Shown here in pieces: positions 2-3,841 of a DNA stretch of 5,352 nt. Each line of letters begins with the position of its first letter. The stretch's first letter is position 1. A program made the position numbers and the translations under genes. This DNA comes from a virus (Duplodnaviria > Heunggongvirae > Uroviricota > Caudoviricetes). Under the pieces are notes generated by a model. The model ran no database searches, was not told the DNA's origin, and worked only from the letters and a program-made list of their open reading frames with translations. The DNA lies in the IMG/VR virus record IMGVR_UViG_3300013942_000028, positions 1 to 5,352 of that record. The stretch is one strand, 5' to 3'.

Positions 2-103
2 ACTGTTTCATTAGCCGAATGGAAAAAATACCGGGTGCTGCTGATGCGAGTTGATACAGCAGACCCGGACTGGCCTACTCCTCCGGCGACTCAGGCCAGT
101 TGA
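2..103 (+). CDS. Tail fiber assembly protein, C-terminal fragment (5' end lies left of the window); presumed active-orientation partner of the convergent tfa at 75..506
   Basis: Frame 2 is open from the window edge to TGA at 101..103 and reads [33 protein letters not shown]. This matches the lambda Tfa-family C-terminus as I recall it ([15 protein letters not shown]...APDIEWP). Not in the ORF track because no start codon falls inside the window. Confidence 0.6.
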
Positions 104-506
104 TATCTGGTGCGCTGGATATGTCCACAGATTCCAGCGCATCGAGATAATCCAGCCACTCGTTATACTGGGCCTTCTCGTCGTCTGTAAGTCGCCCCAG
201 CGCAGCTTTACCCGGCCACTGCTTGCTGTTTATATACTCATTAGCCTGATCGATACGATACTGTTTTTCAGCTTCAGCTGCTGCGATTTCCTCCTCATGG
301 CTTAAAGGTGGAATGTCTACCCATGCCGGCATTCCATCCTCAGTAGCTCCACGAGTTTTACCCTCTGGTGGCATCCCCGAATATTCAGTGAATGTCTCAT
401 CTGAGACGGCTATGAGATCGTCAGGCCAGTTTCTACTCGCTTCATAAACATCTCTGAGCTCATCAGGGTAGAAAGCGTTATTTAATGCTGAATAAAAATA
501 AGCCAT
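75..506 (-). CDS. tfa: Tail fiber assembly protein (Tfa/gpG/U-like chaperone), alternative copy inside the invertible segment
   Basis: 143-aa ORF ending ...[33 protein letters not shown], the Tfa-family C-terminal motif (W..Y/L....VD.S.APDI.WP). It starts 3 nt downstream of the stop of the tail-fiber cassette on the same strand (translational coupling) and converges on, and overlaps by 29 bp, the other tfa 3' end. Confidence 0.8.
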
Positions 507-509
507 TTA

Positions 510-917
510 TTAATACCCCACAGCAAAATAGTTAAACCCGCCAGCGCCGATGGATGATTCAGCGTTGGTTCCTGTCTGATAAGCGCGTAGCTGGAAATTA
601 GTTCTCGTAAAATCCTGGGCGGTTAACGCAAAACCTTGACCTGTACCCCCAACACTCTGGTCTGTTGCAACAACACATAGCGCCCTGGTTGGAAACGCAA
701 TCGGGAATGATACTGTTTCTGGGGATGTTTTCGTTTTGGCTATTGCCCATTGAAGAATTAACCCGCCTGGCAGGTATTGATACCCCGAATCGGCTCGCTG
801 ATTACCAAATGAAGACATGTCCGGAATCTGTCCGGAACCAGTGCCAACATTTTTTTTTGCCGCATCTCCTAAACCAACGTTTAAGAAAATGCAGAGGTAA
901 CAGCTAACTGGCATCAT
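510..917 (-). CDS. Tail fiber protein C-terminal variable (receptor-binding) cassette, currently in the silent orientation. The ATG at 917 is probably not a real start; the cassette is expected to be expressed only after inversion fuses it to a constant N-terminal tail-fiber segment outside the window
   Basis: Translation contains the side-tail-fiber C-terminal signature ...YLPGGLILQWAIAKT...VSFPIAFPTRALCVVATD..., resembling the Mu S/S', P1 and e14/rac Stf variable domains. The hix-like crossover site lies inside codons ~10-18. An in-frame stop sits just upstream (927..929) and no RBS is evident. Confidence 0.7.
   Translation of the reverse strand: MMPVSCYLCIFLNVGLGDAAKKNVGTGSGQIPDMSSFGNQRADSGYQYLPGGLILQWAIAKTKTSPETVSFPIAFPTRALCVVATDQSVGGTGQGFALTAQDFTRTNFQLRAYQTGTNAESSIGAGGFNYFAVGY
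864..889. other. 26-bp invertase crossover site (hix/gix/cix/pix-like), right-hand copy
   Basis: ATCTCCTAAACC-AA-CGTTTAAGAAAA: two imperfect 12-bp inverted half-sites around a central AA. By my recollection of hixL (TTCTTGAAAACCAAGGTTTTTGATAA) 19 of 26 positions match, including the AAACC-AA-(G/C)GTTT core. Confidence 0.6.
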
Positions 918-944
918 CTCCGGTTTTTATTCAGGGGGATGATC

Positions 945-1520
945 ATGCTTATTGGCTATGTACGCGTGTCAACAAATGACCAGAACACCGATTTGCAACG
1001 TAATGCACTGAACTGCGCGGGATGTGAGCGGATTTTTGAGGACAAAATCAGTGGCACTAAGTCCGACAGACCGGGGCTGAAAAAACTACTCAGGACACTA
1101 TCGGCAGGTGACACGCTGGTTGTCTGGAAGCTGGACAGGTTGGGACGCAGTATGCGGCATCTTGTTACGCTGATAGAAGAGTTGCGCCAGCGTGGCGTGA
1201 ATTTCCGAAGCCTGACTGACAGTATTGATACCAGTACCCCAATGGGCCGTTTCTTTTTTCATGTCATGGGTGCCCCGGCTGAAATGGAACGCGAACTGAT
1301 AGTTGAACGTACCAGGGCGGGGATTGCTGCAGCTCGCGACAAAGGCAGAGTAGGTGGACGCCGTCCTAAGTTGACCACCGAACAGTGGGCACAGATTGGA
1401 CGTTTACTAGAGGCCGGAGAATCAAGACAGCGTATTGCACTGATTTTTGATGTGGGCATTTCTACCATTTATAGAAAATTTCCGGCAAATAAGAGCAGTG
1501 AATCCCCTGAATCAGCATAA
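945..1520 (+). CDS. Site-specific serine DNA invertase (Hin/Gin/Pin/Cin family resolvase-invertase)
   Basis: N-terminus MLIGYVRVSTNDQNTDLQRNA with the catalytic Ser in VRVSTNDQ, the GDTLVVWKLDRLGRS and MGRFFFHVMGA...AEMERELIVERT blocks, and a C-terminal HTH (GESRQRIALIFDVGISTIYRKF). Near-identical in motif order to Gin/Pin/Hin as I recall them. GGGGG at 934..938 is a Shine-Dalgarno 6 nt before the ATG at 945. The track's ATG at 939 is in frame and adds two residues; 945 gives the canonical MLIGYV start. Confidence 0.93.
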   Translation: MLIGYVRVSTNDQNTDLQRNALNCAGCERIFEDKISGTKSDRPGLKKLLRTLSAGDTLVVWKLDRLGRSMRHLVTLIEELRQRGVNFRSLTDSIDTSTPMGRFFFHVMGAPAEMERELIVERTRAGIAAARDKGRVGGRRPKLTTEQWAQIGRLLEAGESRQRIALIFDVGISTIYRKFPANKSSESPESA

Positions 1521-1637
1521 TTTTGATTATCCCTGCAAGTAGACAAATACCGTCATTTTGTGTGAATAACTGTACAACTACACTTAGCTGTTTGTCGGGC
1601 ACAATCACTTCAACATAGGGCGAAGCCTAATCCAATC

Positions 1638-1652: not shown

Positions 1653-2825
1653 ATGGCTCAGGATTACCACCACGGGGTGCGCGTTGTTGAAATCAACGAA
1701 GGCACCCGATCCATTACCACGGTGAGCACCGCCATCGTGGGTATGGTCTGCACGGGCGATGATGCCGATGCAAAAATGTTTCCTCTTAATAAACCCGTGC
1801 TGATCACTGATGTGCTGACTGCCAGCGGTAAAGCGGGTGAGTCCGGCACGCTGGCCCGTTCGCTGGATGCCATCGCTGACCAGGCAAAACCCGTGACCGT
1901 TGTTGTGCGTGTGCCGCAGGGTGAAACGGAAGAAGAAACCACGACCAATATCATCGGCGCAGTGACTGCTGAAGGTAAAAAAACAGGCATGAAAGCCCTG
2001 TTATCTGCCCAGACACAGCTCGGCGTTAAACCGCGCATTCTCGGCGTGCCAGGTCACGATAACAAAGCCGTTGCTACTGAGTTGCTGAGTGTGGCGCAAA
2101 GCCTGCGTGGGTTTGCTTACCTGTCAGCGTATGGCTGCAAGACGGTGCAGGAGGCGATCACTTACCGTGAAAACTTCAGCCAGCGCGAAGGAATGCTGAT
2201 CTGGCCCGACTTTACTGGCTGGGACACGGTGCTGAATGCCGAAGCAACGGCATATGCCACCGCCCGTGCGCTTGGTCTGCGTGCCAAAATTGATGAGCAG
2301 ACTGGATGGCACAAAAGCCTGTCCAACGTGGGCGTGAACGGTGTCACCGGAATTTCTGCAGATGTGTTCTGGGATCTGCAGGACCCGGCAACCGATGCAG
2401 GTCTGCTGAACCAGAACGACGTCACCACGCTTGTGCGTAAAGACGGTTTCCGCTTCTGGGGTTCCCGCTGCCTGAGTGATGACCCGCTCTTTGCCTTCGA
2501 AAACTACACCCGCACGGCGCAGGTGCTGACGGACACAATGGCAGAAGCGCACATGTGGGCAGTGGACAAACCGCTGAACCCGTCGCTGGCGCGCGACATT
2601 ATCGAGGGCATCCGCGCCAAAATGCGCAGCCTGGTCAGTCAGGGGTATCTCATTGGTGGTGATTGCTGGCTGGACGAGTCGGTGAACGACAAAGACACTC
2701 TGAAAGCCGGAAAACTCACCATCGACTATGACTACACGCCAGTGCCGCCACTTGAAAATCTGATGCTGCGCCAGCGCATCACCGATCAGTACCTGGTGAA
2801 TTTCGCCAGCCAGGTCAGCGCGTAA
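1653..2825 (+). CDS. FI: Contractile tail sheath protein (P2 gpFI homologue)
   Basis: 390 aa, close to the P2 FI length. N-terminus [52 protein letters not shown] and internal blocks ([61 protein letters not shown]) match P2 FI from memory. Strong RBS. Confidence 0.95.
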
Positions 2826-2834
2826 GGGGACAAC

Positions 2835-3350
2835 ATGGCTTTACCACGCAAATTAAAACATCTGAACTTGTTTAACGACGGGAACAACTGGCAGGGGATC
2901 GTTGAGTCGCTGACGCTGCCGAAATTCACCCGCAAATATGAGAAGTATCGCGGCGGCGGTATGCCGGGGGCGGTGGATGTGGATCTGGGACTGGATGACA
3001 GTGCACTGGATACAGAATTTTCCATTGGTGGTACTGAACTGCTGCTGTTTAAGCAGATGGGCATATCCACGGTGGATGGCATCCAGCTGCGCTTTACCGG
3101 CTCTATCCAGCGTGACGATACCGGGGAAGTGCAGGCCGTGGAGCTTGTCGTGCGTGGACGTCACAAAGAAGTGGATTCCGGCGAGTGGAAGACGGGCGAA
3201 AGCAACACCACCAAAGTGACCAGTACCAACAGCTACGCGAAGCTGACCATCAATGGTGAGGTGCTCTATGAAGTGGACCTTATCAACATGGTGGAAATTG
3301 TGGACGGTGTTGACCTGATGGAAGCGCACCGCAACGCCCTCGGCCTCTGA
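2835..3350 (+). CDS. FII: Tail tube protein (P2 gpFII homologue)
   Basis: 171 aa starting MALPRKLKHLNLFNDGNNWQG..., the characteristic P2 FII-type N-terminus. It sits immediately downstream of the sheath gene as in P2, with GGGGA 5 nt before the ATG. Confidence 0.93.
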   Translation: MALPRKLKHLNLFNDGNNWQGIVESLTLPKFTRKYEKYRGGGMPGAVDVDLGLDDSALDTEFSIGGTELLLFKQMGISTVDGIQLRFTGSIQRDDTGEVQAVELVVRGRHKEVDSGEWKTGESNTTKVTSTNSYAKLTINGEVLYEVDLINMVEIVDGVDLMEAHRNALGL

Positions 3351-3404
3351 TGTATCTGAACGGCGCGGAATGCCGCGCCAGAACCTAATTTACAGGACAA
3401 CAAA

Positions 3405-3707
3405 ATGAGCGATAAACAGACTGAAAAGACCATTCAACTGGATACCCCCATCATGCGCGGTAAAACAGAAATTACCGAAATTGTGTTGCGTAAACCGCAG
3501 TCTGGTGCGCTGCGCGGCACACGCCTGCAGGCCATTATGGATATGGATGTGAACGCGATGATGACCGTGATCCCCCGCATCTCCAGTCCGGCAGTGACTG
3601 CACAGGAAATCGCAGAGATGGACCCGGCAGATCTCACAGCCATGTCGGTTGAGGTTGTCACTTTTTTGTTGAAGAAGTCGGTGCTTGCCGGTTTACCGAC
3701 AGCCTGA
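3405..3707 (+). CDS. E: Tail assembly chaperone (P2 gpE homologue; lambda gpG analogue)
   Basis: 100-aa ORF between the tube and tape measure genes, the conserved position of E. It contains an in-frame slippery heptamer near its 3' end. Confidence 0.85.
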   Translation: MSDKQTEKTIQLDTPIMRGKTEITEIVLRKPQSGALRGTRLQAIMDMDVNAMMTVIPRISSPAVTAQEIAEMDPADLTAMSVEVVTFLLKKSVLAGLPTA

Positions 3708-3841
3708 CGGTTGACGATCTGGTGGCAGATATCGCCACCATTTTTCACTGGCCGCCATCCGTTACTGACGTTATGCCGCTGACCGAAGTGCTGGAATGGC
3801 GGTATAAAGCGATTCAGAGAAGCGGGGCCAACGATGAGTGA
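3405..3841 (+). CDS. Tail assembly chaperone frameshift product E+E' (frame 0 through 3668, then -1 frame to the TGA at 3839..3841), about 145 aa
   Basis: T TTT TTG at 3662..3668 is in the correct zero-frame register (act-ttt-ttg). The -1 frame from 3668 stays open for 57 codons (VEEVGACRFTDSLTVDDLVADIATIFHWPPSVTDVMPLTEVLEWRYKAIQRSGAND) and terminates 8 nt into the tape measure gene, as described for P2 E/E' and lambda G/GT. Confidence 0.7.
3662..3668 (+). other. Programmed -1 ribosomal frameshift slippery heptanucleotide (X XXY YYZ = T TTT TTG)
   Basis: Seen directly in the sequence, in the required register relative to the E reading frame. Confidence 0.7.

What the first reader, a model, noticed from the sequence alone, without database searches (positions are those of the whole stretch)
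3362..3379. GC-rich stem-loop between the tail tube and chaperone genes
GGCGCGG-AATG-CCGCGCC forms a perfect 7-bp G/C stem with a 4-nt loop in the 54-bp FII-E spacer. It is not followed by a U-tract, so it is not a classic intrinsic terminator. It could act as a partial terminator or RNA-stability/processing element that keeps tube mRNA above chaperone and tape-measure mRNA, a common stoichiometry device in tail operons.
Basis: seen in the sequence. Interest (0 to 1): 0.35.

Follow-up and report, generated by a model that had tools for sequence, protein, structure and literature searches.

The report
Conserved RNA hairpin after tail-tube gene
A short, very stable RNA hairpin sits between the tail-tube gene and the tail-chaperone gene of this P2-like prophage, and almost all related phages keep a hairpin there with different sequences, so it is a real but ordinary-looking element that probably keeps tube mRNA more abundant than the genes after it.

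Summary
GGCGCGG-AATG-CCGCGCC (3362-3379) is a perfect 7-bp all-G/C hairpin (-13.9 kcal/mol) in the 54-nt spacer between FII (tail tube) and E (tail assembly chaperone), and no U-tract follows it. It is the only such hairpin in the window.

It is not a chance feature. Of 64 distinct FII-E junctions from P2-like phages and prophages, 60 carry a G/C-rich hairpin at the same place, with about 30 different stem sequences, P2 itself included. In the window's own family the stem is 93% identical. The loop is 38% identical and FII third codon positions are 60%. There are two compensatory changes and several G·U changes that pair only on the sense strand.

U-tracts after the stem range from none to canonical. 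A few relatives have true terminators there, but the window fails the U-tract criterion.

Best reading: a sense-strand RNA element that sets FI/FII above E-T-U-D, mainly as a decay barrier and not as a classic terminator. No transcript data were available, so the mechanism is inferred. P2's own record annotates a similar U-less hairpin elsewhere as a "putative transcription attenuator".

Side finding: a second, covarying, terminator-like hairpin lies inside E' (3720-3740).

The parts
1559..1576 (+). TGT-N12-ACA dyad, the likely Ogr-type activator site of the late promoter (P_F equivalent) that drives the FI-FII-E-E'-T transcript carrying the hairpin
   Evidence: Pattern match (weak on its own: 3 matches in the window against 1.7 expected by chance). 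It lies 77-94 nt upstream of the FI ATG, the same layout as the annotated activator site, transcription start and FI start in P2.
1653..2825 (+). FI, tail sheath gene (upstream, high-copy product)
   Evidence: ORF; Pfam Phage_sheath_1, Phage_sheath_1C
2835..3350 (+). FII, tail tube gene; stop codon TGA at 3348-3350
   Evidence: ORF; Pfam Phage_tube, E = 8.7e-60
3351..3404 (+). 54-nt FII-E intercistronic spacer
3362..3368 (+). 5' arm of the hairpin, GGCGCGG
   Evidence: Invariant in 78 near-identical IMG/VR loci. 93% identity across the family alignment.
3369..3372 (+). Loop AATG, free to vary (AATG, GATA, GATT, AATA, GCAG, GAAG, TTCG and others)
   Evidence: loop identity 38%
3373..3379 (+). 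3' arm of the hairpin, CCGCGCC
   Evidence: RNAalifold independently predicts this helix, as 6 of its 7 pairs, and nothing else in the junction.
3380..3393 (+). U-poor, unstructured tail AGAACCUAAUUUAC. There is no U-tract next to the stem. The AAUUU stretch is a possible but unproven endonuclease target.
   Evidence: T-tail score nT = 0.08; the endonuclease idea is inference only
3394..3397 (+). Shine-Dalgarno AGGA of E, 7 nt before the ATG and outside the hairpin
   Evidence: Read directly from the sequence
3405..3707 (+). E, tail assembly chaperone gene (downstream, low-copy product), with the slippery TTTTTTG at 3662-3668 for E+E'
   Evidence: ORF; Pfam Phage_TAC_7; sequence

Best explanation
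The hairpin is a functional stem-loop in the sense-strand late mRNA of the FI-FII-E-E'-T-U-D tail operon. It sits at the boundary between the genes needed in hundreds of copies per virion (sheath FI, tube FII) and those needed in a few copies (E, E+E', T, U, D). In this lineage it has no U-tract, so it most likely works after transcription. After endonucleolytic cleavage somewhere downstream, 3'-to-5' exonucleases (PNPase, RNase II) stall at the base of the 7-bp all-G/C stem. The FI-FII segment then outlives the E-T-U-D segment and yields more protein. A small contribution from pausing or inefficient termination is possible. Shown here: the structure, its position, its conservation under sequence turnover, its strand bias and the absence of a U-tract. 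Inferred: the decay-barrier mechanism and the effect on stoichiometry.
For: (1) The hairpin is real and stable: -13.9 kcal/mol. It is the only such hairpin in the window and the only intergenic perfect one in the 33-kb genome of the near relative Cartapus.
(2) Positional conservation with sequence replacement: 60 of 64 distinct FII-E spacers carry a G/C-rich hairpin (mean -15.2 kcal/mol). It usually starts 5-11 nt after the FII stop and ends 19-34 nt before the E ATG, with about 30 different stem sequences. P2 has CCGGUCAGC/GCUGGCCGG.
(3) The strongest local fold in the spacer averages -15.4 kcal/mol, against -8.5 for equal-sized blocks of the flanking FII and E coding sequence. In 37 of 64 loci no control block matches it.
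(4) Purifying selection acts on the stem only: stem identity 93%, loop 38%, spacer flanks 52-58%, FII third codon positions 60%.
(5) Two compensatory pair changes (C-G to U-A, G-C to A-U) and three changes to G·U.
(6) Sense-strand bias: 10 G·U pairs on the + strand against 3 on the - strand, and the + strand is more stable (Wilcoxon p = 0.008).
(7) The stem is conserved whether or not a U-tract follows (0-6 T in the next 8 nt; the window has 1). The selected unit is therefore the hairpin alone, which fits a decay barrier better than canonical termination.
(8) The same phage type has further U-less G/C hairpins at other block boundaries of late operons (M|L, lysB|R), while operon ends have hairpin plus U-tract. 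P2's record calls the lysB|R one a 'putative transcription attenuator'.
(9) From established knowledge, not tested here: intercistronic stem-loops such as REP in malEFG stabilise the upstream mRNA segment and set differential expression within operons.
Against: There are no transcript data: no 3'-end maps, no Northern blots, no half-lives. The literature searches found no study of this junction. Some relatives have a canonical terminator at the same position (Pseudomonas phage Dobby, Xanthomonas FoX3, Shewanella prophage; a terminator is also annotated there in Mannheimia 1127AP1). T is mildly enriched just after the stems family-wide (0.34 against 0.20 further downstream), so termination may be the ancestral or a parallel function. 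A 7-bp stem is near the lower limit of what stalls PNPase (my recollection of in-vitro work, not checked). Covariation inside the alignable family is modest: 2 events, and a covariation score reached by 58 of 500 shuffles. The hairpin family used for the identity comparison was chosen for being alignable, which inflates stem identity somewhat.
Confidence: 0.45

Rival explanations
1. Leaky transcription terminator or pause site. The hairpin makes a fraction of RNA polymerases stop or pause after FII, perhaps with NusA, so fewer transcripts extend into E-T-U-D.
For: Stem size, G/C content and loop size are typical of terminator hairpins. Positional homologues in Dobby, FoX3, L147/L148 and Shewanella L150 are followed by U-tracts, and the first three score as terminators on the d measure (L150 does not, d = -14.4). 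The Mannheimia and FoX3 records annotate a rho-independent terminator there. T is enriched next to the stem family-wide. P2 curators called a similar U-less hairpin an attenuator.
Against: In the window there is one U in the 8 nt after the stem, nT = 0.08 and d = -40.8; only 4 of 60 junction hairpins score above 0. From established knowledge, E. coli RNA polymerase needs the U-tract for intrinsic termination. The stem is under strong selection in lineages with no U at all, for example the Klebsiella CCACCCCA tails.
Confidence: 0.2
2. 5'-end protector of the downstream message. Processing between the FII stop and the hairpin leaves E-T-U-D mRNA starting with a 5' stem-loop, which shields it from 5'-end-dependent RNase E attack, as the ompA-type 5' hairpin does.
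For: The hairpin lies a constant 19-34 nt upstream of the E ATG, with an unstructured Shine-Dalgarno region after it. That geometry resembles known 5' stabilisers (established knowledge).
Against: Nothing here distinguishes this from the 3'-barrier model. It would raise expression of the low-copy genes, which is the opposite of what the stoichiometry calls for. The hairpin also tracks the FII stop codon closely (5-11 nt).
Confidence: 0.08
3. Translational coupling clamp. The hairpin brings the segment just after the FII stop next to E's Shine-Dalgarno sequence so that they pair and block E translation unless a ribosome terminating at FII opens the pairing.
For: In the window, UGU.UCUG (3351-3358) is predicted to pair with CAGGACA (3393-3399) around the hairpin. 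The summed pair probability is 5.75 against 1.42 in shuffles, and 4% of shuffles do as well. P2 shows something similar.
Against: It is not conserved. Across 59 junctions the median shuffle percentile is 0.56 and mean observed pairing equals the control (0.75 against 0.75). RNAalifold finds no such helix. In close relatives one of the predicted paired positions after the stop (G/A/C, window 3352) varies while its partner stays fixed.
Confidence: 0.05
4. DNA-level palindrome, either a protein-binding site or a recombination or cruciform site at a module boundary.
For: It is a perfect inverted repeat in DNA, and it lies at a junction between gene blocks that recombine in mosaic phages.
Against: The stem sequences are unrelated between clades while the pairing is kept. 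The loop is free to vary. G·U pairs that would be A·C mismatches on the other strand or in duplex-extruded DNA are tolerated, and the sense strand folds better. No repeat of the motif occurs elsewhere in an intergenic region of the phage genome.
Confidence: 0.03
5. No function: a chance palindrome or a decaying relic of an ancestral terminator.
For: Perfect G/C-rich 7-bp hairpins occur inside coding sequence at about 5 per 33 kb. A few lineages lack the hairpin: Tatumella L125, Wolbachia WO, Zymomonas and Vibrio MAR. One lineage carries a damaged stem (Raoultella L142).
Against: The stem is more conserved than the first and second codon positions of FII (93% against 86%). Stems are replaced rather than lost, and compensatory changes occur. 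The chance expectation for a given 54-nt spacer is roughly 0.003 or less.
Confidence: 0.04

Closest known systems
'Putative transcription attenuator' in the O operon of phage P2 (NC_001895 8399-8417, between lysB/lysC and R)
   Same: It is a G/C-rich 8-bp hairpin (GCUGGCAC-GCU-GUGCCAGC, -13.2 kcal/mol) inside a late operon of a P2-type phage, at a boundary between gene blocks, with no U-tract after it (d = -47 against -41 here). Cartapus, a close relative of the window, has a hairpin at the equivalent lysB|R gap.
   Different: It sits in a different operon at a different position with an unrelated sequence, and it overlaps a coding region (lysC) in P2. Its function is also only 'putative'. The FII-E hairpin itself is not annotated in the P2 record.
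Intercistronic mRNA-stabilising stem-loops (REP elements in malE-malF, and similar decay barriers in other operons); from established knowledge
   Same: They are stable stem-loops just downstream of the more highly expressed cistron of an operon. They need no U-tract and act on the sense RNA.
   Different: This is not a REP element. There is no REP consensus, the motif is a single copy in the phage genome and Rfam has no match. It is a single short hairpin, not a 35-nt imperfect palindrome or a BIME array. The stabilising effect is not demonstrated here.
Canonical intrinsic (Rho-independent) terminators placed after abundant structural genes, such as T7 T-phi after gene 10 (established knowledge) and the terminators annotated between the tube and chaperone genes of Mannheimia phage 1127AP1 and Xanthomonas phage FoX3
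   Same: The position after a very abundant structural gene is the same, with essential genes downstream that require read-through. The hairpin geometry is the same. The relatives' elements are positional homologues of this one.
   Different: The window's hairpin lacks the U-tract, which is a defining part of an intrinsic terminator.

Membership tests
Intrinsic (Rho-independent) terminator | G/C-rich stem-loop of about 5-12 bp with a 3-8 nt loop | tested here: met
   A 7-bp all-G/C stem with a 4-nt loop, -13.9 kcal/mol
Intrinsic (Rho-independent) terminator | U-rich tract immediately 3' of the stem | tested here: not met
   The tail is AGAACCUA, 1 U in 8. The site is not reported by the terminator scan. 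nT = 0.08 and d = -40.8, while P2 tV, the Cartapus exo|RES terminator and the window's own 3720 hairpin score +4.6 to +8.9 (the formula was recalled from d'Aubenton-Carafa 1990 and is used only for relative comparison).
Intrinsic (Rho-independent) terminator | RNA 3' ends generated at the site by RNA polymerase alone | not testable with these tools
   Needs in-vitro transcription or Term-seq
Intercistronic mRNA decay barrier / stabiliser hairpin | Stable stem-loop in an intercistronic spacer downstream of the more abundant product, on the transcribed strand | tested here: met
   It lies between FII (tube) and E (chaperone) on the coding strand. Sense-strand G·U bias.
Intercistronic mRNA decay barrier / stabiliser hairpin | Structure, not sequence, is what is conserved | tested here: met
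   60 of 64 junctions have a hairpin, with about 30 different stems. Stem 93% against loop 38% identity. Compensatory changes.
Intercistronic mRNA decay barrier / stabiliser hairpin | The upstream segment has a longer half-life, and 3' ends pile up at the stem base in an exonuclease-dependent way | not testable with these tools
   No transcript data. The literature searches found none.
REP / BIME repeated extragenic palindromes | Member of a dispersed repeat family with the REP consensus | tested here: not met
   It is the only intergenic copy in the related 33-kb phage genome. No Rfam family matches. The stem sequence differs between related phages.
P2-type late-operon 'attenuator' hairpins | U-less G/C hairpin at a gene-block boundary inside an Ogr-dependent late operon | tested here: met
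   Same class by structure, tail and context as P2 8399-8417. An Ogr-type dyad lies upstream of FI in the window.
Translational-coupling anti-SD clamp | Conserved pairing between the post-stop segment and the downstream Shine-Dalgarno sequence | tested here: not met
   Median shuffle percentile 0.56 over 59 junctions; absent from the RNAalifold consensus
Any curated RNA family (Rfam 15) | Covariance-model match | tested here: not met
   A cmscan of the whole window at E up to 10 gives nothing at 3340-3410

The most novel reading that the evidence does not exclude
The FII-E hairpin is the first of two RNA steps that grade expression along the tail operon. The second is the covarying hairpin plus U-run at 3720-3748 inside E', which would be a true terminator that forms only on transcripts whose lead ribosome stopped at the E stop codon. 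Ribosomes that make the -1 frameshift into E' would melt it. Transcription of T-U-D, and translation of T through the 8-nt E'/T overlap, would then be gated by the frameshift frequency. More broadly, U-less G/C hairpins (FII|E, M|L, lysB|R) would form a punctuation system that divides P2-type late mRNAs into segments with different lifetimes.
Probability: 0.1. Interest if true: 0.7.

Novelty: new member of a known kind. Interest (0 to 1): 0.33.

Why it matters
Contractile tails need a few hundred sheath and tube subunits (established knowledge of P2-type tails, not measured here) but only a handful of chaperone, tape-measure, terminator and hub proteins. All of these are made from one promoter. 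For P2-type phages the known controls are translational: the E/E+E' frameshift, for example. A structurally conserved RNA hairpin exactly at the high-copy to low-copy boundary, kept across many P2-like genera (Escherichia, Salmonella, Klebsiella, Yersinia, Pantoea, Erwinia, Pseudomonas, Burkholderia, Ralstonia and Aeromonas phages) while its sequence turns over, suggests an RNA-level layer of stoichiometry control that is not annotated at this junction in the P2 reference record. There are practical consequences. Annotation pipelines sometimes call a terminator here and sometimes place the E start inside the hairpin loop. People engineering tailocins, R-type pyocins or P2-derived particles should keep or tune this element. 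It is nevertheless a familiar kind of device, so the conceptual gain is modest.

Tried and rejected
(1) Anti-SD/SD clamp (translational coupling). The window and P2 show such pairing, but it is no more frequent than in shuffles across 59 junctions and is absent from the consensus fold, so it is rejected as a general mechanism.

(2) Larger structure around the hairpin. The 76-nt context folds no better than shuffles (z = -1.4).

(3) Known RNA family. Rfam gives nothing.

(4) Canonical terminator. The site fails the U-tract test.

(5) Internal promoter for E. There is no sigma-70-like site near the spacer. The only other TGT-N12-ACA dyad nearby lies inside FII, about 500 nt upstream of the spacer (2869-2886).

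(6) Dispersed repeat. There is no other intergenic copy in Cartapus.

(7) A single covariation alignment of all junctions. MAFFT puts the GGCAGG-type hairpins out of register with the GGCGCGG type. Formal pair counts were therefore restricted to the alignable family (A2), and the wider argument rests on alignment-free folding against coding-sequence controls.

(8) Literature. Eight full-text searches and look-ups of Christie et al. 2002 by DOI and PMID found no description of this hairpin and no transcript map of a P2-like tail operon. The older P2 papers (Temple 1991, Christie 2002, Ziermann 1994) are not in the held library, so I cannot exclude that the P2 hairpin was mentioned there.

(9) The first viral-contig scan returned only relatives 98-99% identical in FII. 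It was useful for the stem-against-loop variation but not for covariation.

Full report
CONTEXT. The window is the tail module of a P2-like (Fels-2 / Elveevirus-type) prophage. It is 97% identical to Escherichia phage Cartapus over the junction and up to 99.8% identical to E. coli chromosomal prophages. The gene order is as follows (Pfam):
- inverted tail-fibre and fibre-assembly segments on the minus strand (75-917);
- a DNA invertase (939-1520);
- FI sheath (1653-2825);
- FII tube (2835-3350);
- E chaperone (3405-3707), with the P2 slippery heptamer TTTTTTG at 3662-3668;
- the E' extension, then the start of T.
A TGT-N12-ACA dyad at 1559-1576 lies where P2 has the Ogr-binding site of its F-operon promoter. 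The hairpin is therefore about 1.7 kb into a single late transcript, FI-FII-E-E'-T-U-D.

OBSERVATION. GGCGCGG-AATG-CCGCGCC occupies 3362-3379. It starts 11 nt after the FII stop and ends 25 nt before the E ATG, in a 54-nt spacer. It folds at -13.9 kcal/mol with 97% ensemble frequency. The next 8 nt hold a single U, and neither strand has a T-run. It is the only perfect G/C-rich hairpin of at least 7 bp in the window, and dinucleotide shuffles give 0.28 per window (0.05 for all-G/C stems). In the 33-kb Cartapus genome there are six such hairpins. Five are inside genes, and the only intergenic one is this one.

IS IT MORE THAN CHANCE? I collected FII-E junctions from three sources: 78 near-identical IMG/VR loci, 20 diverse phage records and 54 prophages from one-genome-per-species bacterial assemblies. 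Among the near-identical loci there are 23 spacer haplotypes. The 14 stem positions never vary, while the loop (AATG, GATA, GATT, AATA) and both flanks do.

Across 64 distinct spacers, 60 carry a G/C-rich hairpin of -9.7 kcal/mol or better (mean -15.2). It usually begins 5-11 nt after the stop codon and ends 19-34 nt before the ATG. The stems differ widely:
- GGCGCGG/CCGCGCC (Escherichia, Salmonella, Citrobacter, Enterobacter);
- CUGGCGCGG/CCGCGCCAG (Klebsiella);
- CGGCAGGC/GCCUGCCG and CGGCAGGG/CCCUGCCG (Pantoea, Erwinia);
- CGGUGCGG/CCGCACCG (Phytobacter);
- CCGGUCAGC/GCUGGCCGG (P2, PSP3);
- GGGCGGC/GCCGCCC (Aeromonas);
- CCGCCGG/CCGGCGG (Pseudomonas phage Dobby);
- 11-bp stems in Ralstonia and Burkholderia phages.

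The best local fold in the spacer averages -15.4 kcal/mol, against -8.5 for equal-sized blocks of the flanking FII and E coding sequence. In 37 of 64 loci no control block does as well.

There are four apparent exceptions among the 64: Wolbachia WO, Zymomonas, one Tatumella prophage and Yersinia phage vB_YenM_42.18. A fifth, Vibrio MAR, seen with a 10-nt gap before an extra ORF, fell outside that set. The Yersinia case is an annotation artefact. Its annotated E start is the ATG in the hairpin loop, and the hairpin GGUGUGG-AAUGCU-CCGCGCC, with two G·U pairs, is present.

SELECTION AND STRAND. In the alignable GGCGCGG family (36 sequences, A2), mean pairwise identity is 93% in the stem, 38% in the loop and 52-58% in the rest of the spacer. 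In the last 90 codons of FII it is 60% at third positions and 86% at first and second positions. 96.7% of pair cells are paired. Two pairs show compensatory double changes (C-G to U-A, G-C to A-U; 2 of 500 shuffles reach this), and three changes go to G·U. RNAalifold recovers this helix, as 6 of its 7 pairs, and nothing else. Covariation within the family is modest, so the stronger argument is the wholesale replacement of stems at a fixed position. G·U pairs, which pair only in sense-strand RNA, outnumber their antisense equivalents 10 to 3, and the sense strand folds better (p = 0.008). There is some selection bias here because the stems were picked on the + strand. Together these results point to an RNA-level function on the mRNA strand and against a DNA-binding site.

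TERMINATOR OR NOT? The number of T in the 8 nt after the stem ranges from 0 to 6 (mean 2.7) and the window has 1. With a classical hairpin-plus-T-tail discriminant (formula from memory, used only for relative comparison), 4 of 60 junction hairpins score as terminators and the window scores -40.8. Real operon-end terminators score +5.7 (P2 tV) and +8.9 (Cartapus exo|RES).

Some relatives do have canonical terminators at this position: Dobby, FoX3 and a Shewanella prophage. The Mannheimia 1127AP1 and FoX3 records annotate a rho-independent terminator there. T is mildly enriched next to the stems family-wide (0.34 against 0.20 further downstream). The element therefore spans a continuum from true terminator to bare hairpin.

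In lineages with no U at all the stem is still strongly conserved, so the hairpin alone must carry function there. Canonical termination by E. coli RNA polymerase cannot explain that. A barrier to 3'-to-5' exonucleases can, because such a barrier needs only a stable stem. The barrier model is my best explanation at 0.45, with leaky termination or pausing as the main rival at 0.2. The two are not exclusive, and both give the same outcome: more FI-FII message than E-T-U-D message. All of this is inferred. No transcript data could be found.

OTHER MECHANISMS TESTED. In the window, the segment right after the FII stop (3351-3358) can pair with E's Shine-Dalgarno region (3393-3399) around the hairpin, which suggested a translational-coupling clamp. 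Across 59 junctions this pairing is no commoner than in shuffles (median percentile 0.56), and it is absent from the consensus structure. I reject it as the conserved function. No Rfam family matches. No promoter-like site lies in or next to the spacer.

COMPARISON WITH WHAT IS KNOWN. The closest precedent is in P2 itself. The reference record annotates GCUGGCAC-GCU-GUGCCAGC (8399-8417, between lysB/lysC and R) as a 'putative transcription attenuator; O operon'. It is also a U-less G/C hairpin (-13.2 kcal/mol, d = -47). Cartapus has U-less G/C hairpins in the equivalent lysB|R gap and in the M|L gap, whereas its operon-end hairpins carry U-tracts. P2's M|L gap is also heavily structured. The FII-E hairpin is not annotated in the P2 record.

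Functionally it resembles intercistronic stabiliser hairpins such as REP in malEFG (established knowledge), but it is not a REP element. It resembles read-through terminators after abundant structural genes, such as T7 T-phi (established knowledge), but it lacks their defining U-tract. I file it as a new member of a known kind.

SIDE FINDING. The best terminator-like site in the window is a second hairpin, UGGUGGCAGAUAUCGCCACCA (3720-3740), followed by UUUUUCAC. It lies 12 nt after the E stop, inside the E' reading frame, and upstream of the T start, which overlaps the E' stop by 8 nt. In a gapless 41-sequence alignment:
- 94.5% of pair cells are paired;
- 4 of 8 pairs show compensatory changes (15 cells);
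- the covariation score exceeds all 500 shuffles.
The changes lie at synonymous third positions. In Yersinia and Shewanella they go through amino-acid replacements (V to M; T to M or V) that keep the pairing. The hairpin scores like a real terminator (d = +4.6). P2 does not have it. One speculative reading is that only frameshifting ribosomes would melt it, so T-U-D expression would be tied to the -1 frameshift. This deserves its own follow-up.

VERDICT. The hairpin is real and is kept by selection as an RNA structure at the tube/chaperone boundary throughout the P2-like phages. It is a tidy but unsurprising regulatory element, and I score its interest at about 0.33.

Noticed in passing
window 3720-3748 (+): A second hairpin, UGGUGGCAGAUAUCGCCACCA plus a UUUUUCAC tail, lies 12 nt after the E stop and inside the E' frameshift extension. 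It is the top terminator-like hit of the scan. It shows strong covariation at synonymous sites (4 of 8 pairs compensatory, score above all 500 shuffles), and pairing is kept through amino-acid changes in Yersinia and Shewanella relatives. It could be a terminator gated by the -1 frameshift.
   Followed up: partly
window 3662-3668 and 3834-3841 (+): The P2-type slippery heptamer TTTTTTG lies 37 nt before the E stop. The E' frame ends at TGA 3839-3841 and overlaps the T start ATG (3834-3836) by 8 nt, exactly as in P2. T translation may therefore be coupled to frameshifted ribosomes.
   Followed up: partly
window 1559-1576 (+): A TGT-N12-ACA dyad lies 77-94 nt upstream of the FI start. It matches the position of the Ogr/activator site of P2's F-operon late promoter. 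The pattern alone is not significant (3 matches against 1.7 expected).
   Followed up: partly
window 75-1520: Tail-fibre C-terminal and fibre-assembly ORFs on the minus strand (75-506, 510-917) sit next to a serine DNA invertase gene (939-1520, annotated as a Gin homologue in Cartapus). This looks like an invertible host-range segment caught in the inverted orientation. The crossover sites were not looked for.
   Followed up: no
L156 (Cartapus) gaps 6375-6469 and 8278-8351; L157 (P2) 5901-5999 and 8399-8417: Other block boundaries inside late operons (M|L, lysB|R) also carry G/C-rich hairpins without U-tracts, while operon ends have hairpin plus U-tract. The P2 record calls the lysB|R one a 'putative transcription attenuator'. 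This suggests a general punctuation of P2-type late mRNAs.
   Followed up: partly
L086 (Yersinia phage vB_YenM_42.18) 1431 vs 1470: The annotated start of gene E is the ATG inside the loop of the FII-E hairpin, which gives a 130-aa E. The real start is probably the ATG at 1470, preceded by GGAUAG. This looks like an annotation error caused by the hairpin loop sequence AAUG.
   Followed up: partly
L125 (Tatumella saanichensis) and L142 (Raoultella sp.) FII-E spacers: These are natural variants. L125 has lost the hairpin (43-nt spacer; best single-hairpin fold -1.0 kcal/mol, best local fold -2.3). L142 has a mismatch in the stem (CCUCGCC). They could serve as natural knock-outs for testing function.
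   Followed up: no
window 3351-3358 with 3393-3399 (+): Predicted pairing of the post-stop segment UGU.UCUG with E's Shine-Dalgarno region CAGGACA encloses the hairpin. It is present in this lineage and in P2 but is not conserved across the family.
   Followed up: yes
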